A stretch of 64,000 nucleotides of DNA from contig OZ242040.1 in assembly GCA_965205095.1 (NCBI GenBank), positions 455,787 to 519,786 of the forward strand. Reading direction: 5' to 3'. Both the position numbers and the translations under genes were made by a program. The DNA comes from Candidatus Multivorans sp. (GTDB taxonomy: Bacteria > Acidobacteriota > Thermoanaerobaculia > Multivoradales > Multivoraceae). The notes beneath the pieces were generated by a model. The model did not search any database and was not told where the DNA came from. It saw nothing but the letters and a program-made list of their open reading frames with translations. Shown here piece after piece: positions 4,838-58,126 of this stretch. The stretch's first letter is position 1. The number at the start of each line of letters is the position of its first letter.

Positions 4838-7377
4838 CCGATCCACTCGACGATCTGAAGCGCGTCTTTGACCGCGCGACGCCCGAGCCGGACGCCGAGA
4901 GGCGGAGGGCGAACCTGGCCCGCGCGCAGCAGCTCTTCGACCGGAACCAAGGTCTTGAGGCCGAGCGCCGTCGTACTGACGACCGCCCCAATACCTGGGC
5001 GGGCATTCAACACGGAGTACGACACATGCTCAACGTAGTGACGCCCCGACCTGTCCTGGCTGCCGCCGGCGTCCTGGCTGCCGTCGGCCTTTCCGCGCTC
5101 CTGGTGACGGTGCTTCGGGACGCGACGCCGCGACCGCCGGTGGTCGTCGCCGATGCCGGCGTCGCGCCGGAATCTGTGACCGCGCTTCAGGGCGCTGTCG
5201 AAGAAGATACGGAGGCGACCGACTTGGCCGGCGTGTCCCCAGGTGGAGGCGATCGTCTGGATCAGGCGGAAACCCCTGCCTTCACGGAGCGAGGAGAGAC
5301 GGATTCGGCTACGCCCCGGAGCGAAGTCCCGGTGGCGACGGATGCTGCGGCGTCAGCCCCGGAGCAGGTTGCGGCGGCGACGGTTGCCGGACGCGTGGTT
5401 GACGCCGGGGGCGAGGCTCTGCCGGGCGTCAGCCTTACGCTATCTAGCGACAGCGGCGATTGGTTCGCGCTGACGGACAACAGCGGCGACTATCGCTTCC
5501 CGGATGTCGCCCCAGGAGACTATTCGGTGAAGGCGGAGCTCCCGGGCCTGGGAGAAGCAGATGCCGTGGTTCGCGCTGCGGCGGGAGAGCGAAGATCGAT
5601 CGACTTCAGGTTGAGGGCAGCGGTCACGGGCGGGCCGGAGACCGTCACGGGGATGGCGCCTGTGACTGTCACGGGAGAGAAGCCGATAGTGGACAAGTTC
5701 AACGTTGCGGCCAGCGGCCTGGCAGCGGTCGCCGAAGCGGTGCCGCGCGCCAAACGGGTGCCGCCCGCTGAACCTGTGGTGGAGGCCGAAGCTGTGGTCG
5801 CCGAGTCCCTTGCGAGCGCGTTCGTGCCGCGGCGAGCCGCCCGGAGTGCCGCCGGCACCACCCGGACGTACCACGGCGTGATCAACGCCGCTGAACCGCC
5901 ACCACCGGAGGGTGTTGGTCCGGCGCCGGACGTGACGATCGCCCAGTCCGCCAACACTGAAGCCTTCGCCAACGAAGACGCCAGTCCGGTCAAGGTCACG
6001 AGCGAAGAGCCGGTTTCGACCTTCTCGATCGACATCGACACCGCCAGCTACTCGGTCGTCCGTTCCTCGCTGACGAACGGCTACCTGCCGGCGTCCGAAT
6101 CGGTGCGGATCGAGGAACTGATCAACTACTTCCCGTACGCCTATCCGCCGCCCGAGGGGTCCGGCGCGCCGTTCCGGCCGACGGTGACCGTCTCCGAGAC
6201 GCCGTGGAACGCGGACACGCTGCTGATGCAAATCGGCATCCAGGGCCGGCAGCCGGCGATGGAAGACCGGCCGCCGCTCAACCTCGTCTTCCTGGTCGAC
6301 ACGTCGGGTTCGATGGACCGGCCGAACAAGCTGCCGCTGCTCGTGCAGTCCTTCCGCCTGATGGTCGGCCAGCTCGATCCCGCCGACGAGGTCGCGATCG
6401 TCGCCTACGCGGGCAGCGCGGGCCGCGTGCTGGACCCGACCCCCGCCGCCGATCGCGGCGCGATTCTGGCGGCGCTCGACCGGCTCCACGCGGGGGGGTC
6501 AACGGCCGGGGCGGCAGGCATCCAGTTGGCCTACCGGGTTGCCCGGGACATGGCGGCGGAAGGCGAGGTCACGCGGGTCGTCCTGGCGACCGACGGCGAT
6601 TTCAACGTCGGCATCTCCGACCCCGAGCAGCTCGAGAGCTTCATCGCCCGCCAGCGCGACAGCGGCGTCTACCTTTCGGTGCTCGGCTTCGGCCGCGGGA
6701 ACCTGGACGACGCAACGATGCAGGCGCTGGCCCAGAACGGCAATGGCCAGGCGGCCTACATCGACACGCTCGCGGAGGCGCAGAAGGTCCTCGTCGACCA
6801 GCTTGTGGGCACCCTGTTCCCGATCGCGAACGACGTGAAGATCCAGGTCGAGTTCAACCCGGCCACGGTGGCCGAGTACCGCCTGATCGGCTACGAGACC
6901 CGGGCGCTGAGGCGCGAGGACTTCAACAATGACCGGGTCGACGCCGGCGAGATCGGCGCCGGACACGCGGTCACCGCGATCTACGAGGTGACGCCGGTGG
7001 GCTCGCCCGCCGTGTTGCACGACGCCCTGCGCTATGCCGGTCGCGCGGCCGAGCCGCCGGTGGCGGCCGAGATCCCCGCAGGGTCTCGGGAGCTCGCCTT
7101 CCTGCGGCTGCGCTACAAGGAGCCGGGCCGGGACACCAGCGAACTCGTCGAACTGCCGATCGCTCGCGACGTGGGCGAGGCCGGCGCCGATCAGCGGTTC
7201 GCCGCTGCGGTCGCCGGGTTCGGGCAGTTGCTGCGGGCCGGCGCCTACACCGGCGACTGGACCTGGGCCGACGCGATCGGGCTCGCCGAGGCGAACACCG
7301 GCAACGACCGGTTCGGTTACCGGCGCGAGGCGGTGACCCTGATGCGTCTCGCGGAGAGCCTGGCCGAAGCCGAGTAG
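4837..7377 (+). CDS. membrane-anchored anti-sigma-like protein with a CarboxypepD_reg-like domain and a C-terminal YfbK-type von Willebrand factor A (vWA) domain
   Basis: An ATGA overlap couples it to the sigma factor stop. There is one TM helix (VLAAAGVLAAVGLSALLVTVL), a YfbK-like N-terminal signature (FSIDIDTASYSVVRSSLTNGYLP..VRIEELINYF) and a vWA MIDAS motif (LVFLVDTSGSM). Confidence 0.75.
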   Translation, partial: TDPLDDLKRVFDRATPEPDAERRRANLARAQQLFDRNQGLEAERRRTDDRPNTWAGIQHGVRHMLNVVTPRPVLAAAGVLAAVGLSALLVTVLRDATPRPPVVVADAGVAPESVTALQGAVEEDTEATDLAGVSPGGGDRLDQAETPAFTERGETDSATPRSEVPVATDAAASAPEQVAAATVAGRVVDAGGEALPGVSLTLSSDSGDWFALTDNSGDYRFPDVAPGDYSVKAELPGLGEADAVVRAAAGERRSIDFRLRAAVTGGPETVTGMAPVTVTGEKPIVDKFNVAASGLAAVAEAVPRAKRVPPAEPVVEAEAVVAESLASAFVPRRAARSAAGTTRTYHGVINAAEPPPPEGVGPAPDVTIAQSANTEAFANEDASPVKVTSEEPVSTFSIDIDTASYSVVRSSLTNGYLPASESVRIEELINYFPYAYPPPEGSGAPFRPTVTVSETPWNADTLLMQIGIQGRQPAMEDRPPLNLVFLVDTSGSMDRPNKLPLLVQSFRLMVGQLDPADEVAIVAYAGSAGRVLDPTPAADRGAILAALDRLHAGGSTAGAAGIQLAYRVARDMAAEGEVTRVVLATDGDFNVGISDPEQLESFIARQRDSGVYLSVLGFGRGNLDDATMQALAQNGNGQAAYIDTLAEAQKVLVDQLVGTLFPIANDVKIQVEFNPATVAEYRLIGYETRALRREDFNNDRVDAGEIGAGHAVTAIYEVTPVGSPAVLHDALRYAGRAAEPPVAAEIPAGSRELAFLRLRYKEPGRDTSELVELPIARDVGEAGADQRFAAAVAGFGQLLRAGAYTGDWTWADAIGLAEANTGNDRFGYRREAVTLMRLAESLAEAE

Positions 7378-7421
7378 GTCACGGGCCGGACGGCAACTGA
7401 CGGACCGCCTGCTAGCGGTCC

Positions 7422-8246
7422 TTAGTTGGCGCCCAGGAAGCCCCGCAGGCAGCGGGTCACGGCGCCGGGCGCCTCGGCCATCAGCATGTGGCCAGCGTCG
7501 GCCACGGTCACGAAGCCGGCGCCGCCATCGCTGCCGCGGATCCGCTCGGCGAGCGCGCGGCCGGCCCTCGGCGGCGTCATCCGGTCCTTCGCGCCGGCGA
7601 CGACCAGCGTGGGGCAGGTGACGCCCGGGGCGCTCTCGCTGCCCTCCCATTCGTTGCAGGCGGCGAAGTCGCGGTGGAGCACTTCGGGCAGGCAGCGGTC
7701 GAGCAGCGCCATCGTCGACCCGAGCATCCAGAGTCCGGGAGACTCCGCGCCGCCGAAGTGGGCGCCGGTCCCGTGCCCGAAGGCGGCGATGAAGCGATGG
7801 GCGTTGAGCGGCCGTTTCAGGGTGTCCGCCAGCAACCCCGGGTTGACCCGCAGCGTTTCGCCGGCGCCGAGCAGAGCCAGCCGGCTCAACCGGCCGTTCA
7901 GCCGGGACGCCGCGTCGACCGCGATGCAGGCGCCCATCGAGTGACCGATGAGCGCGATGTCCTCGCTGCCCGCCCGTGCTGCCGCCGCTGCCGCGAAGTC
8001 GACGGTCCAGGCGGCGTAGTCCCCGATCGTCGTGATGGCGTCGAGGTCCTCTGACGCGCCGTGACCGGGCAGGTCGGGAGCGGCGACGTTCCAGCCGTGT
8101 TGAGCCAGCGACCGGGCCTGCAGCGCCCACACCGTGTGGTCGCTGCCGGCGCCGTGGAGCAGCACGGCCAGGGGCAGTCCTTCCTGCCAGGCGGAGCCGC
8201 CGGTACCGCAGTACGCCTTGCGGCCCTGGATCTCTAGTTCGGTCAT
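7422..8246 (-). CDS. alpha/beta hydrolase
   Basis: LHGAGSDHTVW oxyanion region, GHSMG nucleophile elbow and a C-terminal GH motif. Confidence 0.7.
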   Translation of the reverse strand: MTELEIQGRKAYCGTGGSAWQEGLPLAVLLHGAGSDHTVWALQARSLAQHGWNVAAPDLPGHGASEDLDAITTIGDYAAWTVDFAAAAAARAGSEDIALIGHSMGACIAVDAASRLNGRLSRLALLGAGETLRVNPGLLADTLKRPLNAHRFIAAFGHGTGAHFGGAESPGLWMLGSTMALLDRCLPEVLHRDFAACNEWEGSESAPGVTCPTLVVAGAKDRMTPPRAGRALAERIRGSDGGAGFVTVADAGHMLMAEAPGAVTRCLRGFLGAN

Positions 8247-31428: not shown

Positions 31429-33618
31429 GTGAGCCCCGCACATCCCAGCACGGAGCCACGGTCGACGAGAAGCGCCGGGCGCGTCGCGGTCCTCCTGCCC
31501 TGCCTCAACGAGGAGGCGACGATCGGCAGCGTCGTGGGGCAGTTTCAGACGGCCCTGCCCGAGGCCTCCATCTACGTCTGCGACAACGGTTCGGAGGACG
31601 GCACCGCCGCAGCCGCCCGCAGGGCCGGCGCCGAGGTCATCCTCGAGGAACGGCGCGGCAAGGGCCTGGCCGTCCGCCGCCTGTTCCAGGAAGTCGACGC
31701 CGATGTCTACCTGATCGCCGACGGCGACGGCACCTACCACGCCGCCAGCGCCGAGCGTCTCGTTTCCACGCTGGCCGGCCGCTACCTGGACATGGTCGTG
31801 GCGGTTCGCCGGAGCACGGAGCCCGGCGCCTACACGCCGATCCGCCGCCTCGGCAACCGCCTCTTCAGCCTGCTCGCCCGGTGGCGCTGCCACCGAACCG
31901 TCCGGGACCTGCTCTCCGGTTACCGCGCCTTCTCCCGCCGGTACGTCGACGCCTTCCCGGCCCGCTCGGACGGCTTCGAGGTCGAGACGGAGATGACCCT
32001 GTTCGCCGCGTCGGCGGGAATGGCCTGGGACGAGATCGAATGCCCGTACTTCGCGCGCCCGCCAGGGTCGCGAAGCAAACTGCACGCCTTCCGGGATGGA
32101 TTCCGGATCCTCCGAACACTGCTCTGGTCGCCGGCCGCGGCCGCGGGTGAGCAGCGCCTCGGCGCGTTGCGAGCCGCCGTCCTGGTGGCCACCGTAACGG
32201 TCGTCGCCACGGCCTCCTTCCTCGGCCTCAACTGGCTCGCGGCCAACGCCGATCCGGAGCCCGTTGCCGACGCTCTCCGGGCCTCGTACGAGCACCCGGA
32301 ACGCACGCTCAGGGACTCCGCCGAGCGCTTCAACGACTGCCTGCTGAGCCTGATGGCGCTCGACCGCGGCGGCACGACCGTCGAACGCACCGTCTCGCCC
32401 CGGCGCGTGTACCGCTACACCCGGCCCCAGCGCCCCTGCGACGCCCTCGAGCAGCGCCTCAGCCAGGGCGCCGTCGACGACTCCGACTACCTGACCGTCT
32501 TCTACCACCAGTACTGGGCCGGCCAGCGGGTGATGCTGCAGTGGCTGCTGCCGCCGCTCGGCGTCGACGGCCTGAGGCGGACGTTGCGGTTGCTGACGTT
32601 CGGCCTGCTCGGGCTCGGGTTCTTCGGTGCGTTGGGACGCATCGTCCTTCTCTTCATCGGCCGCGAGCCCGAAAGCAAGGCGGGCGGAGGCCGGCCGGAA
32701 GGCCGGCGCACCGACAGGGCGGCGCCGCGCCAGAGCGCCGGCAACTCGAGGCGCTGGCGCGAACACTTCTTCCAGGCGATGGCCCTCGCCGCTCTCTTCC
32801 TCTGCCTGTTCCTGTTCCTCGACCTCGACCGTCGCGCGGAGAGCTTCACAACCGGCGCCTCCAACATCCTGACGCTCGCCCTGCTCGTCGCGGTGCCGGC
32901 GTTCGGGATCGCCAACTGGAAGCCGGGACGCCAGGTCCTCCTCTTCGCCGGTTTCGGGGCCGCGATCGCCTACCACGAACTCCTCTTCGGCAGCGCCCTG
33001 ATCGGCCTGGCCTGCGTGCTCCTCGCCCTCGCCACGTCGCCGCCCCCGACCCACGCCACGGTCGCGGTCGCCCGGAGCTGGTGGCCCGCTCTCTTCCTGC
33101 GCTGCGGCGGCGCCTACGTCGGTTGCCTCAGCGCCGTCTTCCTGCTCCGCGTCGTCATCGCCGAGTTCGTGTTCAGGGAACCCGTGCTGTTCAAGTTCTG
33201 GGACCAGCTCACGCACCGGCTCTACGGAGCGCCCCGTAGCTCGATCCACCCGGACATCGACCCCTTCTACGCCTCCCGGCCGACCATGGAGAGGTTCCTC
33301 GAACGGCTCGGGAACAACCTGGGCACGGTCGGCTTCGGCTCAACCGCGGTCGCCCTCATCCTGATCGCCGGCACCGCACTGACCCTGATCGCCGCGACCG
33401 TCTTCGTCCTGAAACAGCGACGTTCCCTGGAAGAGCCCTGGCGCTGGCTCGGCGTTCTCGCCGCCGGCTGGTCCGTTCCCGCGTGGTACGTCGTCCTCTC
33501 TGCCCACGCGATGGCGCACGTCCCGGTGGCGATCCGCCTGCTGGCGCTGCCCTACGCGGCGGTGGCGGTGCTCATCGTGGGCGTTGCGGTGTTCGGCCGG
33601 CGGACGGAGGTTGTGTGA
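31429..33618 (+). CDS. family-2 glycosyltransferase fused to a large polytopic membrane domain
   Basis: The N-terminal GT2 domain (VAVLLPCLNEE..VCDNGSEDGT..ADGDGT) is followed by more than 10 predicted TM helices. A hydrophilic loop at aa 419-435 is encoded by a REP-like module. Confidence 0.65.
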   Translation: MSPAHPSTEPRSTRSAGRVAVLLPCLNEEATIGSVVGQFQTALPEASIYVCDNGSEDGTAAAARRAGAEVILEERRGKGLAVRRLFQEVDADVYLIADGDGTYHAASAERLVSTLAGRYLDMVVAVRRSTEPGAYTPIRRLGNRLFSLLARWRCHRTVRDLLSGYRAFSRRYVDAFPARSDGFEVETEMTLFAASAGMAWDEIECPYFARPPGSRSKLHAFRDGFRILRTLLWSPAAAAGEQRLGALRAAVLVATVTVVATASFLGLNWLAANADPEPVADALRASYEHPERTLRDSAERFNDCLLSLMALDRGGTTVERTVSPRRVYRYTRPQRPCDALEQRLSQGAVDDSDYLTVFYHQYWAGQRVMLQWLLPPLGVDGLRRTLRLLTFGLLGLGFFGALGRIVLLFIGREPESKAGGGRPEGRRTDRAAPRQSAGNSRRWREHFFQAMALAALFLCLFLFLDLDRRAESFTTGASNILTLALLVAVPAFGIANWKPGRQVLLFAGFGAAIAYHELLFGSALIGLACVLLALATSPPPTHATVAVARSWWPALFLRCGGAYVGCLSAVFLLRVVIAEFVFREPVLFKFWDQLTHRLYGAPRSSIHPDIDPFYASRPTMERFLERLGNNLGTVGFGSTAVALILIAGTALTLIAATVFVLKQRRSLEEPWRWLGVLAAGWSVPAWYVVLSAHAMAHVPVAIRLLALPYAAVAVLIVGVAVFGRRTEVV

Positions 33619-33764
33619 AATCTCGGAGCCAGGACCTTGAAATCTCGGAGCTACTCATCATGAGATTGCGGACTGGAGATTCAGAAATCTCGGAGCTAGT
33701 GATCTTGAAATCTCGGAGTACATTACCCGGAAATTTCGGAGTACACTAACCGGAAATCTCGGAG
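33617..33764. repeat. array of 6 direct repeats GAAATCTCGGAG (last four at exact 23-bp spacing) filling the intergenic region upstream of the DUF4143 ATPase
   Basis: Copies start at 33617, 33649, 33684, 33707, 33730 (GAAATtTCGGAG) and 33753. Confidence 0.75.
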
Positions 33765-33795
33765 TGCAACTGAGACTTCGGTTAGAGTCATCGAG

Positions 33796-34950
33796 ATGAT
33801 CGACCGGACCGAGTACCTCAGGCGAATGGCGACCGCCACGAAGCGATCGCCGGTCACGTCTCTGCTTGGACCGCGCCAGTGCGGCAAGACCACCCTGGCC
33901 CACAAGTTCGCTGCGACCCGCGCGGCAACCCTGTTCGACCTGGGATCGGAGGCGGACGTCCGGCGGCTCAGCAACCCCGAGCTGGTCCTGGGCGAGCTCG
34001 AAGGACTCGTCGTCCTGGACGAGATCCAGATCATGCCCCGCCTCTTCCGCGTCCTCCGCGTCCTTGCCGACCGGCCGGACTCCCACACGCGTTTCCTGAT
34101 CCTCGGCAGTGCGTCCCCGGAGATCGTGGGCGGCGCCGCGGAGTCGCTGGCCGGCCGGGTCGAGTTCATCGACATGACCGGCTTCGACCTGGCCGAGACC
34201 GGCGCAGCCGATCTGCGGAAACTCTGGCGGCGCGGCGGCTTTCCCCGCTCCTACCTTGCCTCTTCCGAAGCCGACAGCTCGCGTTGGCGCAGCGGGTTCC
34301 TCCGGACCTTCCTGCAAAGGGATCTCCCACAACTCGGTATCGCGATTCCTCCCGCAGCAATGCGGCGCTTCTGGACCACCCTGGCGCACTACCACGGCCA
34401 GATCTGGAACGCGGCCAAACTCGGCCGATCGATCGGCGTCTCGGACAAGACGGCTCGCCACTACCTCGACCTGCTGACCGGCGCCTTCATGGTCCGCCAA
34501 CTCCAGCCCTGGTTCGAGAACACGGCCAAGCGCCAGGTCAAGGCGCCCAAGACCTACATCCGCGACACCGGCCTCCTGCATTCGCTACTCGGCATCGGCA
34601 AGGACCAAGAACTCCTGGGTCACGCCCGCGTCGGCGCGTCCTGGGAGGGCTTCGCCATCGAGCAGGTCTTGAGCGCCCTCGGCCAACCCGATGCCTGGTT
34701 CTGGGCCACCCACGGCGGCGGCGAACTCGACCTGATGGTCCTTGCGCGCGGCCTCCGCATCGGCTTTGAAATGAAATTCAGCGAGGCGCCCAAGGTCACC
34801 ACGTCGATACGCAACGCAGCCGAAACGCTGGCGCTCGACCACCTCTTCGTCGTCTGCCCCACGCGGCACACCTACCCGGTGACCGAGAAGATCACTGTGC
34901 TGTCGGCAGGCGACATTCCCGGCTTGCGCGACCGGGTCGAGGCTCTGTAA
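33796..34950 (+). CDS. AAA+ ATPase with C-terminal DUF4143 (COG1373-type)
   Basis: Walker A LLGPRQCGKTTLA, Walker B VVLDEIQ, and a conserved DUF4143 region (...KTYIRDTGLLHSLLGI...). Confidence 0.75.
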   Translation: MIDRTEYLRRMATATKRSPVTSLLGPRQCGKTTLAHKFAATRAATLFDLGSEADVRRLSNPELVLGELEGLVVLDEIQIMPRLFRVLRVLADRPDSHTRFLILGSASPEIVGGAAESLAGRVEFIDMTGFDLAETGAADLRKLWRRGGFPRSYLASSEADSSRWRSGFLRTFLQRDLPQLGIAIPPAAMRRFWTTLAHYHGQIWNAAKLGRSIGVSDKTARHYLDLLTGAFMVRQLQPWFENTAKRQVKAPKTYIRDTGLLHSLLGIGKDQELLGHARVGASWEGFAIEQVLSALGQPDAWFWATHGGGELDLMVLARGLRIGFEMKFSEAPKVTTSIRNAAETLALDHLFVVCPTRHTYPVTEKITVLSAGDIPGLRDRVEAL

Positions 34951-35035: not shown

Positions 35036-35126
35036 ATGACTCGACCAACCGAAGTCAAACCGCGCAACGGATTCAAGCTCTGGCTCCGCTTCTCTGACGG
35101 TGCCGAGGGTGTCGTTGACCTCTCTA
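35036..35126 (+). pseudogene. DUF2442 N-terminal fragment (about 30 aa, truncated)
   Basis: MTRPTEVKPRNGFKLWLRFSDGAEGVVDLS matches the conserved DUF2442 N-terminus. The family similarity ends where the convergent gene begins. Confidence 0.45.
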
Positions 35127-35519
35127 CCCCTCAGCGGGCGATTCGTCTTCGTAGAGCGCAGGATCCGGGTCGACCTCCACCATCTTGCCGTTCTCCACGA
35201 CGAGAACCGTCGTGCCGTGCCGGTGGGCGTCTCTGTGCGCGCGGCGGACAGCGCGCTCCATCGCGGCAGGAACCGCCTGCATGTCCGGATCGTCGAGCTT
35301 GGATACGGGAAGCTGCTCTTTCTCCGGCCTCACGGGTTTATGCCCTCCTCGACCAAGATCAGTCGACGACCTCGCCGGTCGACGACCTGCCAGGAGTCTA
35401 CGAGATCCCGGTAGACGTTCCGGAAGTTCGCGACGCTTCTGTCGAAGCGCCGTCGCGAAGGTGGTCTTCCCGGCTCCGTTCGGCCCGGCGATCATGATGA
35501 TCTTGCGCTGGGCTGGCAT
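35124..35519 (-). CDS. small P-loop NTPase (zeta-toxin / COG4185-like Walker A); possibly degraded
   Basis: N-terminal KIIMIAGPNGAGKTTFATAL Walker A. The middle of the ORF is low-complexity and Arg-rich, which suggests decay or frameshift. Confidence 0.4.
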   Translation of the reverse strand: MPAQRKIIMIAGPNGAGKTTFATALRQKRRELPERLPGSRRLLAGRRPARSSTDLGRGGHKPVRPEKEQLPVSKLDDPDMQAVPAAMERAVRRAHRDAHRHGTTVLVVENGKMVEVDPDPALYEDESPAEG

Positions 35520-55100: not shown

Positions 55101-56646
55101 AGGCCCTTCGCAACCGGCTCCCCAAGATGCTGCTCGCCATGCTTGAAGTCGATGGTGGGAATCTGAGCGGCAAGAGGCTTGCGGAGGCGGCCATCGCGAC
55201 TTGGCACACGGACGCACTGCGGCGGCACCGTGAAGCGCTCCACGACCTCGATCCCCCGAAACAGTGGGCCGGATCAAGACGGGCGGTCGCGTTCGTCCAA
55301 GCCCTCGGCTTCACAGAAGACTGGGCCGGCAAGCGAACCCGCAAGCGTGATCCGTGGCTGGAAGTTCGGGGTCCAGAGAGGCTCCCGCCATTACACGACT
55401 ATCAGGAACGGGTAGCCGAGAATCTCCGGACACTGCTGGGAGGCGAAGCGGCCGCTGGAGGCGAACGCCGGGCGATGATCAGCTTGCCGACCGGTTCCGG
55501 GAAGACAAGGGTCGCGGTGCAGGCGATCGTCGAAGCGATACGGGAGGACGACTTCCCCGGTGGAGTGCTCTGGGTCGCTGACCGCGACGAGCTCTGCGAG
55601 CAAGCGGTCGAGGCGTGGCGGCAAGTGTGGTCGAGCATCGGCGACTCCGGCGAGCGCCTGCGGATCTCCCGAGCGTGGGCTGGGCAGGAAAGTCCACGTC
55701 CGTTGACGACGCGGCACGTCGTTGTCGCCTCGATCCAAACACTCCAGGCGCGGCTCGGACACACGGACTACGCGTTTCTGGCGGATCTTCAGCTCGTCGT
55801 CTTCGACGAAGCGCATCGGTCCATCGCACCTACCTACACATCCGTGATGGAGGAAGTCGGCCTGACCCGCTACCAGAAGCCTGACGAGCCGTTCCTAGTC
55901 GGCCTCACCGCCACGCCCTACCGCGGGAGAGACGAAGAGGAGACGGCAAGGCTGGTCAATCGCTACGGGAAGCGACGACTTGACGACGGGGCGTTTCCCG
56001 ATGACGAGCCAATCGCCGTCGTTCAGCACCTGCAGAAGATGAGAATCCTCTCTCAGGTGGACCACGCGACGATCCCGGGCGACACCTTCCGCTTGCGCGA
56101 CGACGACCTTCGGCTCATCCGCCAAGAGGGGCAGAAGGACGGGCGATGGAACCTACCCTGGCTCCCGCAACTGGTAGAAGACCGTATCGCCAGCAGCACC
56201 ACCCGCACGAAGCGGATCCTCGACGCGTTCGAGAACCACATCGAACCCGGCTGGCCAGTCCTTGTCTTCGCCACGTCGGTGGAACACGCGCAGACGCTCG
56301 CCGCGCTCCTAGAGGACCGAAGATCCCGTCGCGCGCCATCAGCGGAGACACCAGGACTGCCACCCGTCACCATGTCGTCGACGAGTTCCGGACGGGGCGC
56401 GTCCAGGCGCTCGTGAACTACGGCGTGTTCCGCGAGGGCTTCGATGCCCCGAAGACCCGCGCGATCCTCGTCGCCCGCCCGGTCTACAGCCCGAATCTCT
56501 ACTTCCAGATGATCGGCCGCGGCTTGCGAGGACCGCGGAACGGCGGTACCGACCGCTGCCTGATCCTGAACGTGGAGGACAACATCGAGAACTTCGGGCC
56601 GAAGCTCGCCTTCTCCGACCTGGACTGGCTCTGGGAACCGCGCTGA
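52118..56646 (+). CDS. giant (about 1500 aa) fusion of an N-terminal GHKL / sacsin-HSP90-like ATPase, an uncharacterised central region and a C-terminal SF2 DEAH-box helicase; a 1-nt frameshift near 56317 splits it across two frames (pseudogene or sequencing error)
   Basis: TTG start after a double AGGAG. Bergerat-fold motifs ELVQNSADA (N box), CADDGLPV (G1) and IGRFGLGFKSV (G2). Helicase motifs I LPTGSGKT, II VVFDEAHR, III GLTATP; motifs V/VI (QMIGRGLRG) lie in the +1 frame, 56318..56646. Confidence 0.65.
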
Positions 56647-56701: not shown

Positions 56702-56784
56702 AACCTTCCGATTGGCCGGCCTACAACCTTTCAATCAGGCGACCCCTAACCTTGCAATCAGACGGCGCCCAACGTTACGATCAG
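56702..56784. repeat. array of 4 direct repeats AACCTTnCnATCAG at exact 23-bp spacing, ending 4 bp before the start codon of the second DUF4143 ATPase
   Basis: Copies at 56702 (AACCTTCCGATTGG), 56725 (AACCTTTCAATCAG), 56748 (AACCTTGCAATCAG) and 56771 (AACGTTACGATCAG). Confidence 0.75.
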
Positions 56785-56788
56785 CCGC

Positions 56789-58126
56789 ATGTCGGCACCG
56801 ATCTTCTACCCGCGCAGTGCCGAGGAGCGCCTGGCCGAAGCGCTGGAAGACTCGCCGGTCGTGCTCATCCACGGGCCGCGGCAGTGCGGCAAGACGACCC
56901 TCGCCCAATACGCCTGCGCTTCGCACGACCCGACCCGGGGCGGGGACCCCGCAGCCTGGAGCGGCTCCCGGCCGACGCGGGGGCCGAGGCACCGGGACTA
57001 CGCCTACATCAGCTTCGACAACGCGGTCGTCCGAGACGGCGCCCGAGCCGATCCCATCGGCTTCGTCGCCGACCTGCCCGAGCGCGTCATTCTCGATGAG
57101 GTCCAGCACGTTCCAAGCCTGTTCGAAGCACTCAAGATGGAGGTCGACCGGCGCCGGGTGCCCGGCCGTTTCGTCCTCACCGGTTCCACCAACGTGCTGC
57201 TCCTCCCGGCGCTGTCCGAGTCCTTGGCGGGTCGCCTGCAGATCGTGCCGCTGCATCCGCTGGCGCAGTACGAACTGGCCGACCCGGCAGTGCGCGGTGA
57301 CTCTTACTCCAGCACCGGATTCCTGAGCACCCTGTTCGGCCACGGATTCGAGGTCCGTCGAACCGAGCGGCTCGGAAGACAGCTCCTCGACCGGATCGTC
57401 GCCGGCGGATTTCCCGCGGCGCTGCTCCGTCCAACCGCCCGACGGCAGGCCGACTGGTATCGCGACTATGTCGAGACGCAGATCCAGCGCGACGTTCGCG
57501 ATATGACGCGCATCAGATCGCTCGACGCTCTGCCCGCACTCCTTGGTGCGACGGCATCGCAGACGGCCAGACTGTTCAACCTCAGCGACCTTGCAGCGCC
57601 CTTCAGCCTGAGTCGACCGACGATCGGCGACTACATCACGCTTCTCGAGAGGCTCTTTCTGCTGGAACGACTCCCGCCCTGGCACAGCAACCGGCTGAGC
57701 CGGCTGATCAAGACCCCCAAGCTGCACGTCGGCGACACGGGCCTTGCCTCGGCGCTGCTGGGCATTGATGCCGAATCGCTCAACGCCGACCGCTCCCTGC
57801 TGGGACGGTTTCTGGAGACGTTCGCCTTCCAAGAACTCCGACGCCACGCAAGTTGGCACGACCCGTCCATGAGGTTCTTTCACTTTCGCGACAAGGAAGG
57901 CGCCGAAGTGGACATCGTGATCGAGCGCGGCTCACGGTCAATTGCCGGAGTGGAGGTCAAGGCCGCGGCCACAGTCACACGGGCTGACTTCCGGGGTCTG
58001 CGAAAACTCGCCAGAGCCGTCGGCAAGCGCTTCGTCCGCGGAGTCGTGCTCTACGACGGCGAGGCCAGTACGGGTTTCGGGGATGGCATGTACGCAGTGC
58101 CGGTTCGCAGGCTGTGGGAAATGTAG
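56789..58126 (+). CDS. AAA+ ATPase with C-terminal DUF4143 (COG1373-type), paralog of 33796..34950
   Basis: Walker A LIHGPRQCGKTTLA, Walker B VILDEVQ and the same C-terminal block (KTPKLHVGDTGLASALLGI). It carries an extra about 25-aa Gly/Pro/Arg-rich insert after the Walker A. Confidence 0.75.
   Translation: MSAPIFYPRSAEERLAEALEDSPVVLIHGPRQCGKTTLAQYACASHDPTRGGDPAAWSGSRPTRGPRHRDYAYISFDNAVVRDGARADPIGFVADLPERVILDEVQHVPSLFEALKMEVDRRRVPGRFVLTGSTNVLLLPALSESLAGRLQIVPLHPLAQYELADPAVRGDSYSSTGFLSTLFGHGFEVRRTERLGRQLLDRIVAGGFPAALLRPTARRQADWYRDYVETQIQRDVRDMTRIRSLDALPALLGATASQTARLFNLSDLAAPFSLSRPTIGDYITLLERLFLLERLPPWHSNRLSRLIKTPKLHVGDTGLASALLGIDAESLNADRSLLGRFLETFAFQELRRHASWHDPSMRFFHFRDKEGAEVDIVIERGSRSIAGVEVKAAATVTRADFRGLRKLARAVGKRFVRGVVLYDGEASTGFGDGMYAVPVRRLWEM

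What the first reader, a model, noticed from the sequence alone, without database searches (positions are those of the whole stretch)
33617..33764. Second, sequence-unrelated phased repeat array upstream of the other DUF4143 ATPase paralog
Six copies of GAAATCTCGGAG fill the 180-bp gap between the GT2 stop codon, which the first copy overlaps, and the ATPase start. The last four copies sit at exactly 23-bp spacing, the same phase as the 56.7-kb array. The consensus is completely different.

Two paralogous ATPases, each with its own private array at identical periodicity, suggests paralog-specific recognition such as autoregulation or iteron-like sites. Degenerate inverted copies (GAGATT) lie between the direct copies.
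Basis: seen in the sequence. Interest (0 to 1): 0.65.

Follow-up and report, generated by a model that had tools for sequence, protein, structure and literature searches.

The report
Phased operator array of a defence-candidate ATPase
The repeats are real and are multiplied copies of a protein-binding half-site built into the promoter of a very common but uncharacterised candidate defence gene (PDC-S01, an ATPase-nuclease), most likely bound by the gene's own product to control its own expression.

Summary
GAAATCTCGGAG occurs five times exactly and once with one mismatch at 33617-33764. A decayed in-phase copy at 33662 makes seven units spaced 22/23/22/23/23/23 bp. No other array in the window passes a stringent phased-repeat scan.

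The gene downstream (33796-34950) is an AAA_14+DUF4143 protein, which PADLOC files as candidate defence gene PDC-S01.

Comparative data change the reading. In about 55 homologous loci from at least 14 phyla, the same half-site forms a 37-bp palindrome around a consensus -35. A -10 box follows, 6-8 nt before the ATG, which implies a leaderless mRNA. The two arms co-vary strongly.

Only the Acidobacteriota clade, which includes this window, multiplied the half-site into a direct array. The 12-bp cores are 91-97% identical and the spacers about 30%.

The second paralog's family has 2-7 direct units at exactly 23 bp in 57 of 58 promoters. Successive units carry the -35 and the -10, so 23 bp is the promoter's own register.

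Only the promoter element and the ORF travel together; no neighbouring gene is conserved. Arm bases track residues of a putative winged helix in the ATPase.

Best reading: an iteron-like autoregulatory operator. Binding itself is inferred, not shown.

The parts
31429..33618 (+). Upstream GT2 glycosyltransferase ORF. Its TGA (33616-33618) overlaps unit 1.
   Evidence: Glycos_transf_2, E 3.9e-12. The same GT2-array-ATPase synteny is present in L001-L003.
33617..33628 (+). Unit 1, GAAATCTCGGAG (exact). Absent from the 98%-identical relative L001.
33639..33650 (+). Unit 2, GAAATCTCGGAG (exact).
33662..33673 (+). Unit 3, a decayed direct copy in phase, GAGATTGCGGAC (8 of 12 matches).
   Evidence: Read. 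It lies 23 bp after unit 2 and 22 bp before unit 4. L002 has decayed direct copies at the equivalent positions.
33684..33695 (+). Unit 4, GAAATCTCGGAG (exact).
33707..33718 (+). Unit 5, GAAATCTCGGAG (exact).
33730..33741 (+). Unit 6, GAAATTTCGGAG (one mismatch).
33753..33764 (+). Unit 7, GAAATCTCGGAG (exact). It corresponds to the left arm of the ancestral palindrome and spans -43 to -32 relative to the ATG.
   Evidence: by alignment with L007-L024.
33770..33783 (.). Proximal degenerate element that abuts the -10. Read as an inverted half-site, CTGAGACTTC (33770-33779) matches the reverse complement of GAAATCTCGG at 8 of 10 positions. Read as a direct copy, GAGACTTCGGTT (33772-33783) matches at 7 of 12. 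It corresponds to the right arm of the family palindrome.
   Evidence: Read and compared with the homologues.
33783..33788 (+). Putative -10 hexamer TAGAGT, 7 nt before the ATG. No recognisable -35 hexamer lies at a 16-18 nt spacer.
   Evidence: The homologous position carries TATAAT, TAAAGT or TATACT in relatives.
33796..34950 (+). ATPase 1 (384 aa): AAA_14 + DUF4143, PADLOC candidate PDC-S01. The inferred transcription start is at or next to the A of the ATG (leaderless).
   Evidence: D312, E325 and K327 are invariant or nearly invariant, which gives the PD-(D/E)XK motif.
34393..34545 (+). Codons for residues about 200-250, the putative winged helix-turn-helix (WNAAKLGRSIGVSDKTARHYLDLL...KRQVKAPK). 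Residues 207, 217, 218 and 248 co-vary with the operator arms.
   Evidence: The structure model is of low confidence in this stretch.
56706..56787 (+). Array of paralog 2: four 13-nt cores (TTNCRNTYNGNCG) starting at 56706, 56729, 56752 and 56775, exactly 23 bp apart. The third unit carries TTGCAA (56752-56757, -35). The fourth carries TACGAT (56776-56781, -10), 7 nt before the ATG.
56789..58126 (+). ATPase 2 (445 aa): AAA_14 + DUF4143, PDC-S01. It is about 27% identical to ATPase 1.

Best explanation
The array is a set of phased, sequence-specific protein-binding sites that form part of the promoter of the PDC-S01 ATPase-nuclease gene. Each 12-13 bp core is one half-site of an operator that, in most relatives, is a 37-bp palindrome around the -35 hexamer of a leaderless promoter.

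In the Thermoanaerobaculia/Holophagae lineage the half-site was multiplied into direct copies two helical turns apart (22-23 bp), so all sites face one side of the DNA.

The most likely binder is the gene's own product, through a winged helix-turn-helix between its ORC-like AAA+ domain and its PD-(D/E)XK nuclease domain. On this view the protein oligomerises cooperatively along the sites and sets its own expression. That would make the gene an autoregulated, host-independent cassette.

The direction of control is less certain. In relatives with consensus promoters, repression is likely. In this window the -35 is lost, the strong sites lie at -43 and upstream, and a weak site abuts the -10. An activate-then-repress circuit of the C-protein type is therefore equally possible here.

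Shown: the sites, their phase, selection on the cores, their position over the core promoter, linkage to the ORF alone, and paralog-specific motifs.
Inferred: who binds, and the sign of regulation.
For: 1. Selection on cores. Cores are 91-97% identical and spacers 26-33%, both within and between species. The array persists in L001-L006 at 74-98% protein identity.

2. Family-wide operator. 46 of 80 loci have at least 11 of 13 arm matches, against a 99th percentile of 10 in shuffles. In the alignment of 55 palindromes, 88.6% of cells are complementary, against 28-52% when the partner column is slid. 14 of 15 pairs show changes on both sides, and 0 of 500 shuffles reach the observed score. The centres of the two arms are 22 columns apart in that alignment, which matches the direct-repeat period.

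3. Position. The palindrome brackets TTGACA and fills the spacer up to TATAAT. The gap from the -10 to the start codon is 6-8 nt in 34 of 55 family-1 promoters and 51 of 62 family-2 promoters. A Shine-Dalgarno-like 4-mer occurs in 1 of 62 family-2 promoters.

4. Second family. 57 of 58 distinct promoters have 2-7 direct units, and 138 of 146 spacings are exactly 23 bp. Successive units carry the -35 and the -10.

5. Only the element and the ORF travel together. Pairs that are 85-93% identical in DNA share homology only from about -50 (the left edge of the palindrome) to the stop codon. No flanking gene family occurs in more than 4 of 80 loci.

6. Paralog-specific motifs within one genome.

7. 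Covariation of protein and DNA. Four of the five protein columns that co-vary most with arm columns lie in residues 204-250 (hypergeometric p about 8e-4, region chosen post hoc). These are positions 207, 217, 218 and 248. K218 goes with CGGA arms in two separate clades, N218 with CTCA, A218 with GGTA, and Y248 with G[T/C]ATTT outer arms. The window protein (SDKT, V248) predicts the GAAA..TCGGA core that is observed.

8. Fold. The best PDB matches are ORC4, the AAA+/winged-helix ATPase 2qen, ORC/Cdc6 and Hda. Residues about 200-228 give weak hits to the HTH of AtxA, a FadR-family protein and TtgV.

9. The same design is found in cultured bacteria on plasmids: Roseobacter, Paracoccus, Thioflavicoccus, Pseudomonas mendocina and Thermus.
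Against: - No binding data exist.
- Both AlphaFold models have pLDDT below 50 across residues 188-257, so the winged helix rests on sequence pattern, secondary structure and weak PDB hits (E 0.1-1.5).
- The covariation test is confounded by phylogeny, and its region was defined after seeing the data. The rank test over all columns is not significant (p 0.37).
- The window's own promoter fails a sigma-70 consensus scan. Its -35-like GTGCAA lies only 13 nt from the -10, so the promoter geometry here is inferred by homology.
- The transcription start is inferred, not mapped.
- L002 has an orphan four-unit array with no ATPase gene behind it.
- Remote homologues (Agrobacterium vitis, Simkania, Subdoligranulum) have Shine-Dalgarno sites and other layouts.
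Confidence: 0.6

Rival explanations
1. The sites are real operators, but another trans-acting factor binds them: a host regulator, or a protein encoded elsewhere in a defence island. The ATPase would not be the binder.
For: The winged helix in the ATPase is not structurally confirmed. An orphan array exists without an ATPase gene in L002.
Against: No neighbouring gene is conserved across 80 loci. The motif travels with the ORF through at least 14 phyla and onto plasmids. Two different motifs serve the two paralogs in one genome. Arm bases track residues within the ATPase.
Confidence: 0.15
2. The palindrome or array is a recombination or mobility site: the end of a minimal mobile cassette that the ATPase-nuclease or a host recombinase recognises. 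Regulation would be secondary.
For: Homology between near-identical cassettes in unrelated contexts starts exactly at the left edge of the palindrome and stops at the stop codon. The protein combines an AAA+ ATPase with a PD-(D/E)XK nuclease, as TnsC and TnsA do between them (my own knowledge). The number of units differs between 98%-identical strains.
Against: No copies, direct or inverted, lie at the 3' end of the gene. No transposase or integrase is conserved nearby. No target-site duplication was seen. The element sits exactly in promoter register (-35 in its centre, -10 at its edge), which recombination does not explain. GT2-array-ATPase synteny is stable across Thermoanaerobaculia at 75-98% identity.
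Confidence: 0.08
3. The array is a replication-origin element: plasmid-type iterons, or archaeal ORB-like boxes next to an ORC-like initiator gene.
For: The design is direct repeats at 22-23 bp plus an inverted-repeat operator at the gene's promoter, as in pPS10 RepA (PMC2367726). The AAA+ fold is ORC-like. Roseobacter plasmids carry the gene directly after repABC.
Against: The setting is chromosomal (L001 lies on a 393-kb contig). No DnaA box lies nearby and there is no GC-skew switch. GC only falls to 46-53% and there is no AT-rich unwinding element. The window holds two such genes, and the family is reported in tens of thousands of copies. The sites coincide with promoter hexamers. The plasmids that carry the gene already have RepC.
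Confidence: 0.03
4. The repeats are non-functional slippage products, or they act only through DNA shape (phased A-tract curvature).
For: Unit number changes between close strains. Each unit contains GAAAT on a period of two helical turns.
Against: Cores stay 91-97% identical while spacers have randomised to about 30%, so the units are old and the cores are selected. The conserved core extends well beyond the A-tract (CTCGGAG). The same half-site is conserved as a co-varying palindrome across phyla.
Confidence: 0.03
5. The array is a structured RNA element: a 3' UTR of the GT2 gene, a leader of the ATPase gene, or a CRISPR-like array.
For: The region could be transcribed by read-through from GT2.
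Against: Rfam gives no match. The RNA fold z-score is -0.91. The -10 lies 7 nt from the ATG, so the array sits upstream of the inferred start. Repeats of 12 nt with 10-11 nt spacers are not of CRISPR dimensions, and no cas genes are present.
Confidence: 0.02

Closest known systems
Iteron/operator system of plasmid Rep initiators (for example pPS10 RepA)
   Same: Direct repeats of about 22 bp are bound cooperatively. An inverted repeat made of the same half-site lies over the protein's own promoter for autorepression. Recognition is by winged-helix domains (PMC2367726). Here the same half-site appears as a palindrome over the -35 in most relatives and as 22-23 bp direct repeats in this clade and in family 2.
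   Different: There is no origin context. The protein is an AAA+-nuclease fusion, not a WH1-WH2 Rep. The direct repeats themselves overlap the promoter instead of lying in a separate oriV. Binding is untested.
Controller (C) proteins and C-boxes of type II restriction-modification systems
   Same: The setting is a mobile nuclease-encoding unit. Palindromic operators lie just upstream of the regulator's own leaderless gene and give autogenous activation and then repression, which suits entry into a new host (PMC2175313, PMC2632904). The window shows the same logic: strong distal sites and a weak proximal site at the -10.
   Different: C proteins are small Xre-type HTH dimers, separate from the nuclease. 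Here the presumed DNA-binding domain is fused to the ATPase and nuclease. The half-sites are 22 bp apart and number up to seven.
DnaA and ORC/Cdc6 initiators acting on arrays of boxes, including dnaA autoregulation
   Same: An AAA+ domain of the initiator/clamp-loader type is followed by a DNA-binding domain. The best fold matches are ORC4, ORC/Cdc6, Hda and 2qen. Multiple phased sites suit ATP-dependent oligomerisation (my own knowledge).
   Different: Foldseek TM-scores are low (0.23-0.31) because the model is poor. There is no replication role. A PD-(D/E)XK nuclease domain is attached.
PDC-S01 / COG1373 (AAA_14 + DUF4143) candidate defence genes
   Same: Both window genes match the PDC-S01 models (E 8e-77 and 2e-151) and have the Pfam architecture.
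   Different: The papers I could search treat the family only in surveys. They call it the fourth most common defence candidate in prokaryotes and note that it is untested (PMC12988326). I found no description of its promoter, operator or leaderless design.

Membership tests
PDC-S01 / COG1373 ATPase-nuclease (the gene) | AAA_14 P-loop domain followed by DUF4143 | tested here: met
   PF13173 at 9e-20 and 2e-22, PF13635 at 5e-40 and 6.5e-45. PDC-S01 models at 8e-77 and 2e-151.
PDC-S01 / COG1373 ATPase-nuclease (the gene) | PD-(D/E)XK catalytic motif in the C-terminal domain | tested here: met
   D312 and K327 are invariant and E325 is at least 90% conserved across 96 sequences of both families. 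DUF4143 is classed as PD-(D/E)XK in PMC3424549.
PDC-S01 / COG1373 ATPase-nuclease (the gene) | Anti-phage activity | not testable with these tools
   It is a candidate only, and validation is pending (PMC12988326).
Plasmid iterons (Rep-type origin repeats) | At least 3 direct repeats of about 17-22 bp at about 22-bp helical phase | tested here: met
   Seven units at 22-23 bp. Family 2 has 23 bp in 138 of 146 spacings.
Plasmid iterons (Rep-type origin repeats) | An inverted repeat of the same half-site over the promoter of the binding protein's gene | tested here: met
   A palindrome brackets the -35 in about 55 relatives. A degenerate inverted element lies at 33770-33779 in the window.
Plasmid iterons (Rep-type origin repeats) | Location in a replication origin with an AT-rich unwinding element and DnaA boxes, on a replicon that depends on it | tested here: not met
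   No DnaA box within 9 kb. No skew switch. Minimum GC is 46%. The context is chromosomal.
Plasmid iterons (Rep-type origin repeats) | Binding protein of the Rep WH1-WH2 family | tested here: not met
   The protein is AAA_14 + DUF4143.
R-M controller C-box operators | Palindromic operators immediately upstream of the regulator's own leaderless gene | tested here: met
   This rests on geometry only; the transcription start is not mapped.
R-M controller C-box operators | The regulator is a small Xre-type HTH protein co-transcribed with a restriction endonuclease and paired with a methyltransferase | tested here: not met
   It is a single 384-aa fusion protein. No conserved neighbour or methyltransferase is present.
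Transposon ends with multiple transposase-binding sites (Tn7- or Mu-like) | Matching sites in inverted orientation at the other end of the element | tested here: not met
   No copies lie downstream of the gene in the window or in L001-L006. Homology ends at the stop codon.
Transposon ends with multiple transposase-binding sites (Tn7- or Mu-like) | Linked transposase gene | tested here: not met
   No flanking family is conserved.
CRISPR array | Repeats of at least 23 nt separated by unique spacers of similar length, with cas genes | tested here: not met
   The core is 12-13 nt with 10-11 nt spacers. No CRISPR or other Rfam match was found in 33000-34500.
Sigma-70 leaderless promoter | A -10 hexamer ending 6-8 nt before the start codon, with no Shine-Dalgarno site | tested here: met
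   Window: TAGAGT + 7 nt and TACGAT + 7 nt. Families: 34 of 55 and 51 of 62.
Sigma-70 leaderless promoter | Mapped transcription start at the start codon | not testable with these tools
   This needs 5'-RACE or dRNA-seq.

The most novel reading that the evidence does not exclude
PDC-S01 genes, among the commonest candidate defence genes in prokaryotes, may be self-contained 'plug-and-play' cassettes of about 1.2 kb. Each would consist of a consensus leaderless promoter wrapped in its own operator, plus one ORF.

On this reading the ORC-like AAA+/winged-helix/nuclease product polymerises on iteron-like sites two helical turns apart. A readable recognition code (helix residues 217/218 and wing residue 248 against inner and outer arm bases) would keep paralogs insulated from one another.

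Titration of the protein onto invading DNA would then de-repress the gene. That would link sensing to expression. It would fit the 6.6-fold induction of the Thermus thermophilus AAA_14/DUF4143 gene TT_P0211 when plasmid DNA is present (PMC4406477).
Probability: 0.3. Interest if true: 0.8.

Novelty: new variant of a known kind. Interest (0 to 1): 0.62.

Why it matters
PDC-S01 (COG1373) is reported as the fourth most common defence candidate across prokaryotes, with about 39,000 detected copies, and it has no known mechanism or regulation (PMC12988326).

The repeat array in this window led to a family-wide cis-element: an operator in strict promoter register on a leaderless gene. It is conserved across at least 14 phyla and on plasmids of cultured bacteria.

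This gives four things that can be tested directly:
- A specific DNA ligand for an orphan protein family.
- A proposed recognition code.
- An explanation of how a potentially toxic nuclease gene could be expressed safely after horizontal transfer into almost any host.
- A natural series (one palindrome, then 3-7 direct repeats) for studying how AAA+ oligomers read phased sites.

It also gives a practical annotation rule. The true start codon of these genes lies 6-8 nt after the -10 that follows the repeat. On that rule, the annotated TTG start of the Thermus JL-18 gene is probably wrong.

Tried and rejected
- Rfam search of 33000-34500 at E up to 1: only two chance-level hits.
- RNA folding of the array: z-score -0.91, so no structure signal.
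- Sigma-70 and terminator consensus scan of 33300-34100: nothing. The promoter in this clade is degenerate and was placed by homology.
- PDB sequence searches with the protein and with profiles: only P-loop matches.
- NCBIfam: no family.
- Two AlphaFold runs, with 45 and 96 sequences: both left residues 188-257 below pLDDT 50.
- Pfam at relaxed E-value on the middle segment: only DUF4143 plus a 0.09 hit to HTH_Tnp_4.
- Transposon-end idea: rejected, because no 3' copies exist.
- Origin idea: rejected, with no DnaA boxes, no skew change and no AT-rich element.
- Viral contigs: only 3 relatives, so this is not a typical phage gene.
- Search for a conserved partner or regulator gene in the flanks: none.
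- Mutual-information test over the whole wHTH region by rank test: not significant (p 0.37). Only the top-ranked columns are enriched.
- Literature searches for DUF4143, COG1373, PDC-S01 and the 'guilt-by-embedding' preprint: no description of the promoter or operator.
Full report
OBSERVATION

GAAATCTCGGAG lies on the + strand at 33617, 33639, 33684, 33707 and 33753 (exact) and at 33730 (one mismatch). Tandem Repeats Finder reports a 23-bp period.

The first copy overlaps the TGA of a GT2 glycosyltransferase ORF (31429-33618). The last copy ends 31 nt before the ATG (33796) of a 384-aa AAA_14+DUF4143 protein.

The 45-bp gap between copies 2 and 3 contains GAGATTGCGGAC at 33662. This matches the core at 8 of 12 positions and is in phase. 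The array is therefore seven units spaced 22/23/22/23/23/23 bp.

GC falls from about 70% to 46-53% over the array.

A stringent scan for phased repeats finds only this locus in the 64-kb window and none in 20 random windows.

The 56.7-kb array is also real. It has four units exactly 23 bp apart (56706, 56729, 56752, 56775) upstream of the only other DUF4143 gene in the window.

WHAT THE GENE IS

Both genes match PADLOC's candidate single-gene defence system PDC-S01 (E 8e-77 and 2e-151). DUF4143 is classed as a PD-(D/E)XK nuclease (PMC3424549). D312, E325 and K327 are conserved across both families.

PDC-S01 is described as the fourth most common defence candidate in prokaryotes and has not been validated experimentally (PMC12988326).

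No close solved structure exists. The confident parts of an AlphaFold model match ORC4, the AAA+/winged-helix ATPase 2qen, ORC/Cdc6, clamp loaders and Hda best.

COMPARATIVE ANATOMY, FAMILY 1

Eighty genomic loci encode relatives of ATPase 1 (52-98% identity, at least 14 phyla). The closest is a Thermoanaerobaculia MAG at 98%.

The six Acidobacteriota loci (L001-L006) keep a direct array of the same core at 22-23 bp. Pooled over 21 units from four species, the 12-bp core is 91% identical and the 10-bp spacer 30%, which is about random. The units are therefore old and the cores are under selection.

L001 is 98% identical in protein but has five units instead of seven, so copy number drifts in whole units.

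Outside this clade the same half-site appears once in each orientation:
[CCTTGAAAATTCGGA][TTGACA][TCCGAATTTTCAAGG][TATAAT][6-7 nt][ATG].

This palindrome is statistically strong:
- 46 of 80 loci have at least 11 of 13 arm matches, against a 99th percentile of 10 in shuffles.
- In an ungapped alignment of 55 palindromes, 88.6% of cells are complementary, against 28-52% when the partner column is slid.
- 14 of 15 pairs carry changes on both sides.
- No shuffle out of 500 reaches the observed covariation.

The arm centres are 22 bp apart, the same as the direct-repeat period.

In the window, unit 7 (33753) is the left arm, CTGAGACTTC (33770) is a degenerate right arm, and TAGAGT (33783) is the -10.

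COMPARATIVE ANATOMY, FAMILY 2

Eighty metagenomic loci encode relatives of ATPase 2 (59-65% identity). Of 58 distinct promoters, 57 have 2-7 direct units, and 138 of 146 spacings are exactly 23 bp.

The unit is CTT[T/G/A]CAAT[Y][R]GCCGA. In most promoters the penultimate unit reads TTGCAA (-35) and the last reads TACAAT (-10), followed by 7-8 nt and the ATG. The 23-bp period is thus both two helical turns and the -35 to -10 register (6+17). This explains why the two unrelated arrays share a phase.

LEADERLESS DESIGN

The gap from the -10 to the start codon is 6-8 nt in 34 of 55 family-1 promoters and 51 of 62 family-2 promoters. In both window genes it is 7 nt. A Shine-Dalgarno-like 4-mer occurs in 1 of 62 family-2 promoters. 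The transcription start is inferred from this geometry and has not been mapped.

WHAT TRAVELS TOGETHER

Pairs of loci that are 85-93% identical in DNA but lie in unrelated contexts share homology only from about -50 to -55 (the left edge of the palindrome) to the stop codon. No flanking protein family is found in more than 4 of 80 loci.

The conserved unit is therefore the promoter-operator plus one ORF. No separate regulator gene is linked to it.

The same layout, with different arm sequences and shifted so that the arms themselves carry the -35 and -10, occurs on plasmids of cultured bacteria: Roseobacter litoralis, Paracoccus, Thioflavicoccus, Pseudomonas mendocina and Thermus. More remote homologues (Agrobacterium vitis, Simkania, Subdoligranulum) have Shine-Dalgarno sites and other layouts.

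WHO BINDS

Residues about 186-250 have the sequence and secondary-structure pattern of a winged helix-turn-helix (...WNAAKLGRSIGVSDKTARHYLDLL...KRQVKAPK). They give weak hits (E 0.1-1.5) to the HTH of AtxA, a FadR-family protein and TtgV. Both AlphaFold models are unreliable in this stretch.

APC-corrected mutual information between protein columns and operator arm columns ranks residues 217, 248, 207, 330 and 218 highest. Four of these five lie in residues 204-250. The hypergeometric p is about 8e-4, with the region defined post hoc. The loop columns show no such enrichment.

By inspection:
- K218 goes with CGGA inner arms in two separate clades.
- N218 goes with CTCA.
- A218 goes with GGTA.
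- Wing residue Y248 goes with G[T/C]ATTT outer arms.
- The window protein (S-D-K-T, V248) predicts the observed GAAA..TCGGA core.

This evidence is suggestive and is confounded by phylogeny. Combined with the lack of any linked regulator and the paralog-specific motifs within one genome, it makes self-recognition the best-supported inference.

MECHANISM

I propose that the product binds its own promoter through the winged helix and oligomerises through the AAA+ domain on sites two turns apart.

Where the promoter is consensus and the operator covers the -35 and the spacer, the expected effect is autorepression.

In this window the -35 is lost: GTGCAA lies 13 nt from the -10, and the consensus scan finds no promoter. 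Perfect sites lie at -43 and upstream, and a degenerate site abuts the -10. An activate-then-repress circuit like that of the C proteins is equally plausible here (PMC2175313).

Shown: site anatomy, selection, promoter register and linkage. Inferred: the binder, the sign of regulation and the leaderless start.

COMPARISON WITH KNOWN SYSTEMS

The closest functional analogue is the Rep/iteron logic of plasmids such as pPS10. There, dimers sit on an inverted-repeat operator at the rep promoter and monomers sit on 22-bp direct iterons (PMC2367726).

Membership of that class fails. There is no origin context and no Rep-family protein.

C-box circuits share the leaderless autogenous logic but not the type of protein. 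Transposon ends, CRISPR arrays and RNA elements were tested and rejected.

I found no description of this promoter or operator in the searchable literature.

VERDICT

This is a real, selected, phased operator array. It is a lineage-specific expansion of a family-wide, previously undescribed promoter-operator design in PDC-S01 genes. I class it as a new variant of a known kind (autoregulatory, iteron-like operators). Interest is moderate to high, because it gives a common orphan defence candidate a specific DNA ligand and a testable circuit.

Noticed in passing
L002:7494-7572: There is a second, orphan array of four GAAATC[C/T]CGGAn units at 22-23 bp. It follows a duplicated GT2 paralog (ORF 5183-7495) and has no ATPase gene behind it. 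It looks like a segmental duplication of the GT2 3' end plus the array, with the ATPase lost or replaced.
   Followed up: partly
window:33617-33764 compared with L001:3867-3970: The 98%-identical relative has five units instead of seven. It lacks one 22-bp and one 23-bp unit, so units are gained or lost whole and the phase is kept.
   Followed up: yes
window:34950-35600 compared with L001:5155-5600: Homology between the window and its closest relative ends about 170 bp after the ATPase stop codon. The window then carries short gene fragments: a weak DUF2442 N-terminal match at 35036-35497 and what look like minus-strand fragments, one P-loop-like by eye. L001 instead has an 1133-aa ORF. This is a variable, decayed region directly downstream.
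   Followed up: no
window:51845-56646: Upstream of paralog 2 lies a 1523-aa ORF with ResIII/DEAD helicase motifs and a weak Sacsin-domain match. The helicase C-terminal domain continues in a different, overlapping frame (56146-56646). This suggests a frameshift, a pseudogene or an assembly error. It may be a defence-island context for ATPase 2.
   Followed up: no
L164:2552-5042 (Roseobacter litoralis pRLO149_83) and other Roseobacter-group plasmids: On many Rhodobacterales plasmids the homologue lies within a few kb of the start or end of the circular record. On pRLO149_83 it lies directly downstream of repABC. The meaning of this link to the replication module is unknown.
   Followed up: partly
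L166:383 (Thermus thermophilus JL-18 pTTJL1801): The annotated TTG start is probably wrong. An ATG ('ATGATA...') lies immediately after a promoter palindrome about 30 nt upstream and fits the family's leaderless layout.
   Followed up: partly
Thermus thermophilus HB27 TT_P0211 (literature): An AAA_14/DUF4143/'HTH motifs' gene was up 6.6-fold when plasmid DNA was present (PMC4406477). This would fit de-repression on encountering foreign DNA. I did not check that this gene has the operator.
   Followed up: no
L014 and L016, directly downstream of the ATPase stop codon: Two Smithella-type loci share a downstream ORF that begins MMRKVENQNKEFKQAWNDNCLKTI. It is not conserved in the other loci.
   Followed up: no
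L168:250-330 (Agrobacterium vitis plasmid): A remote homologue (31% identity) has AATCCCAGACA and AATCCCAAACA 22 bp apart, upstream of a TTGACT -35, together with a Shine-Dalgarno site. This may be a third motif class at the same spacing.
   Followed up: no
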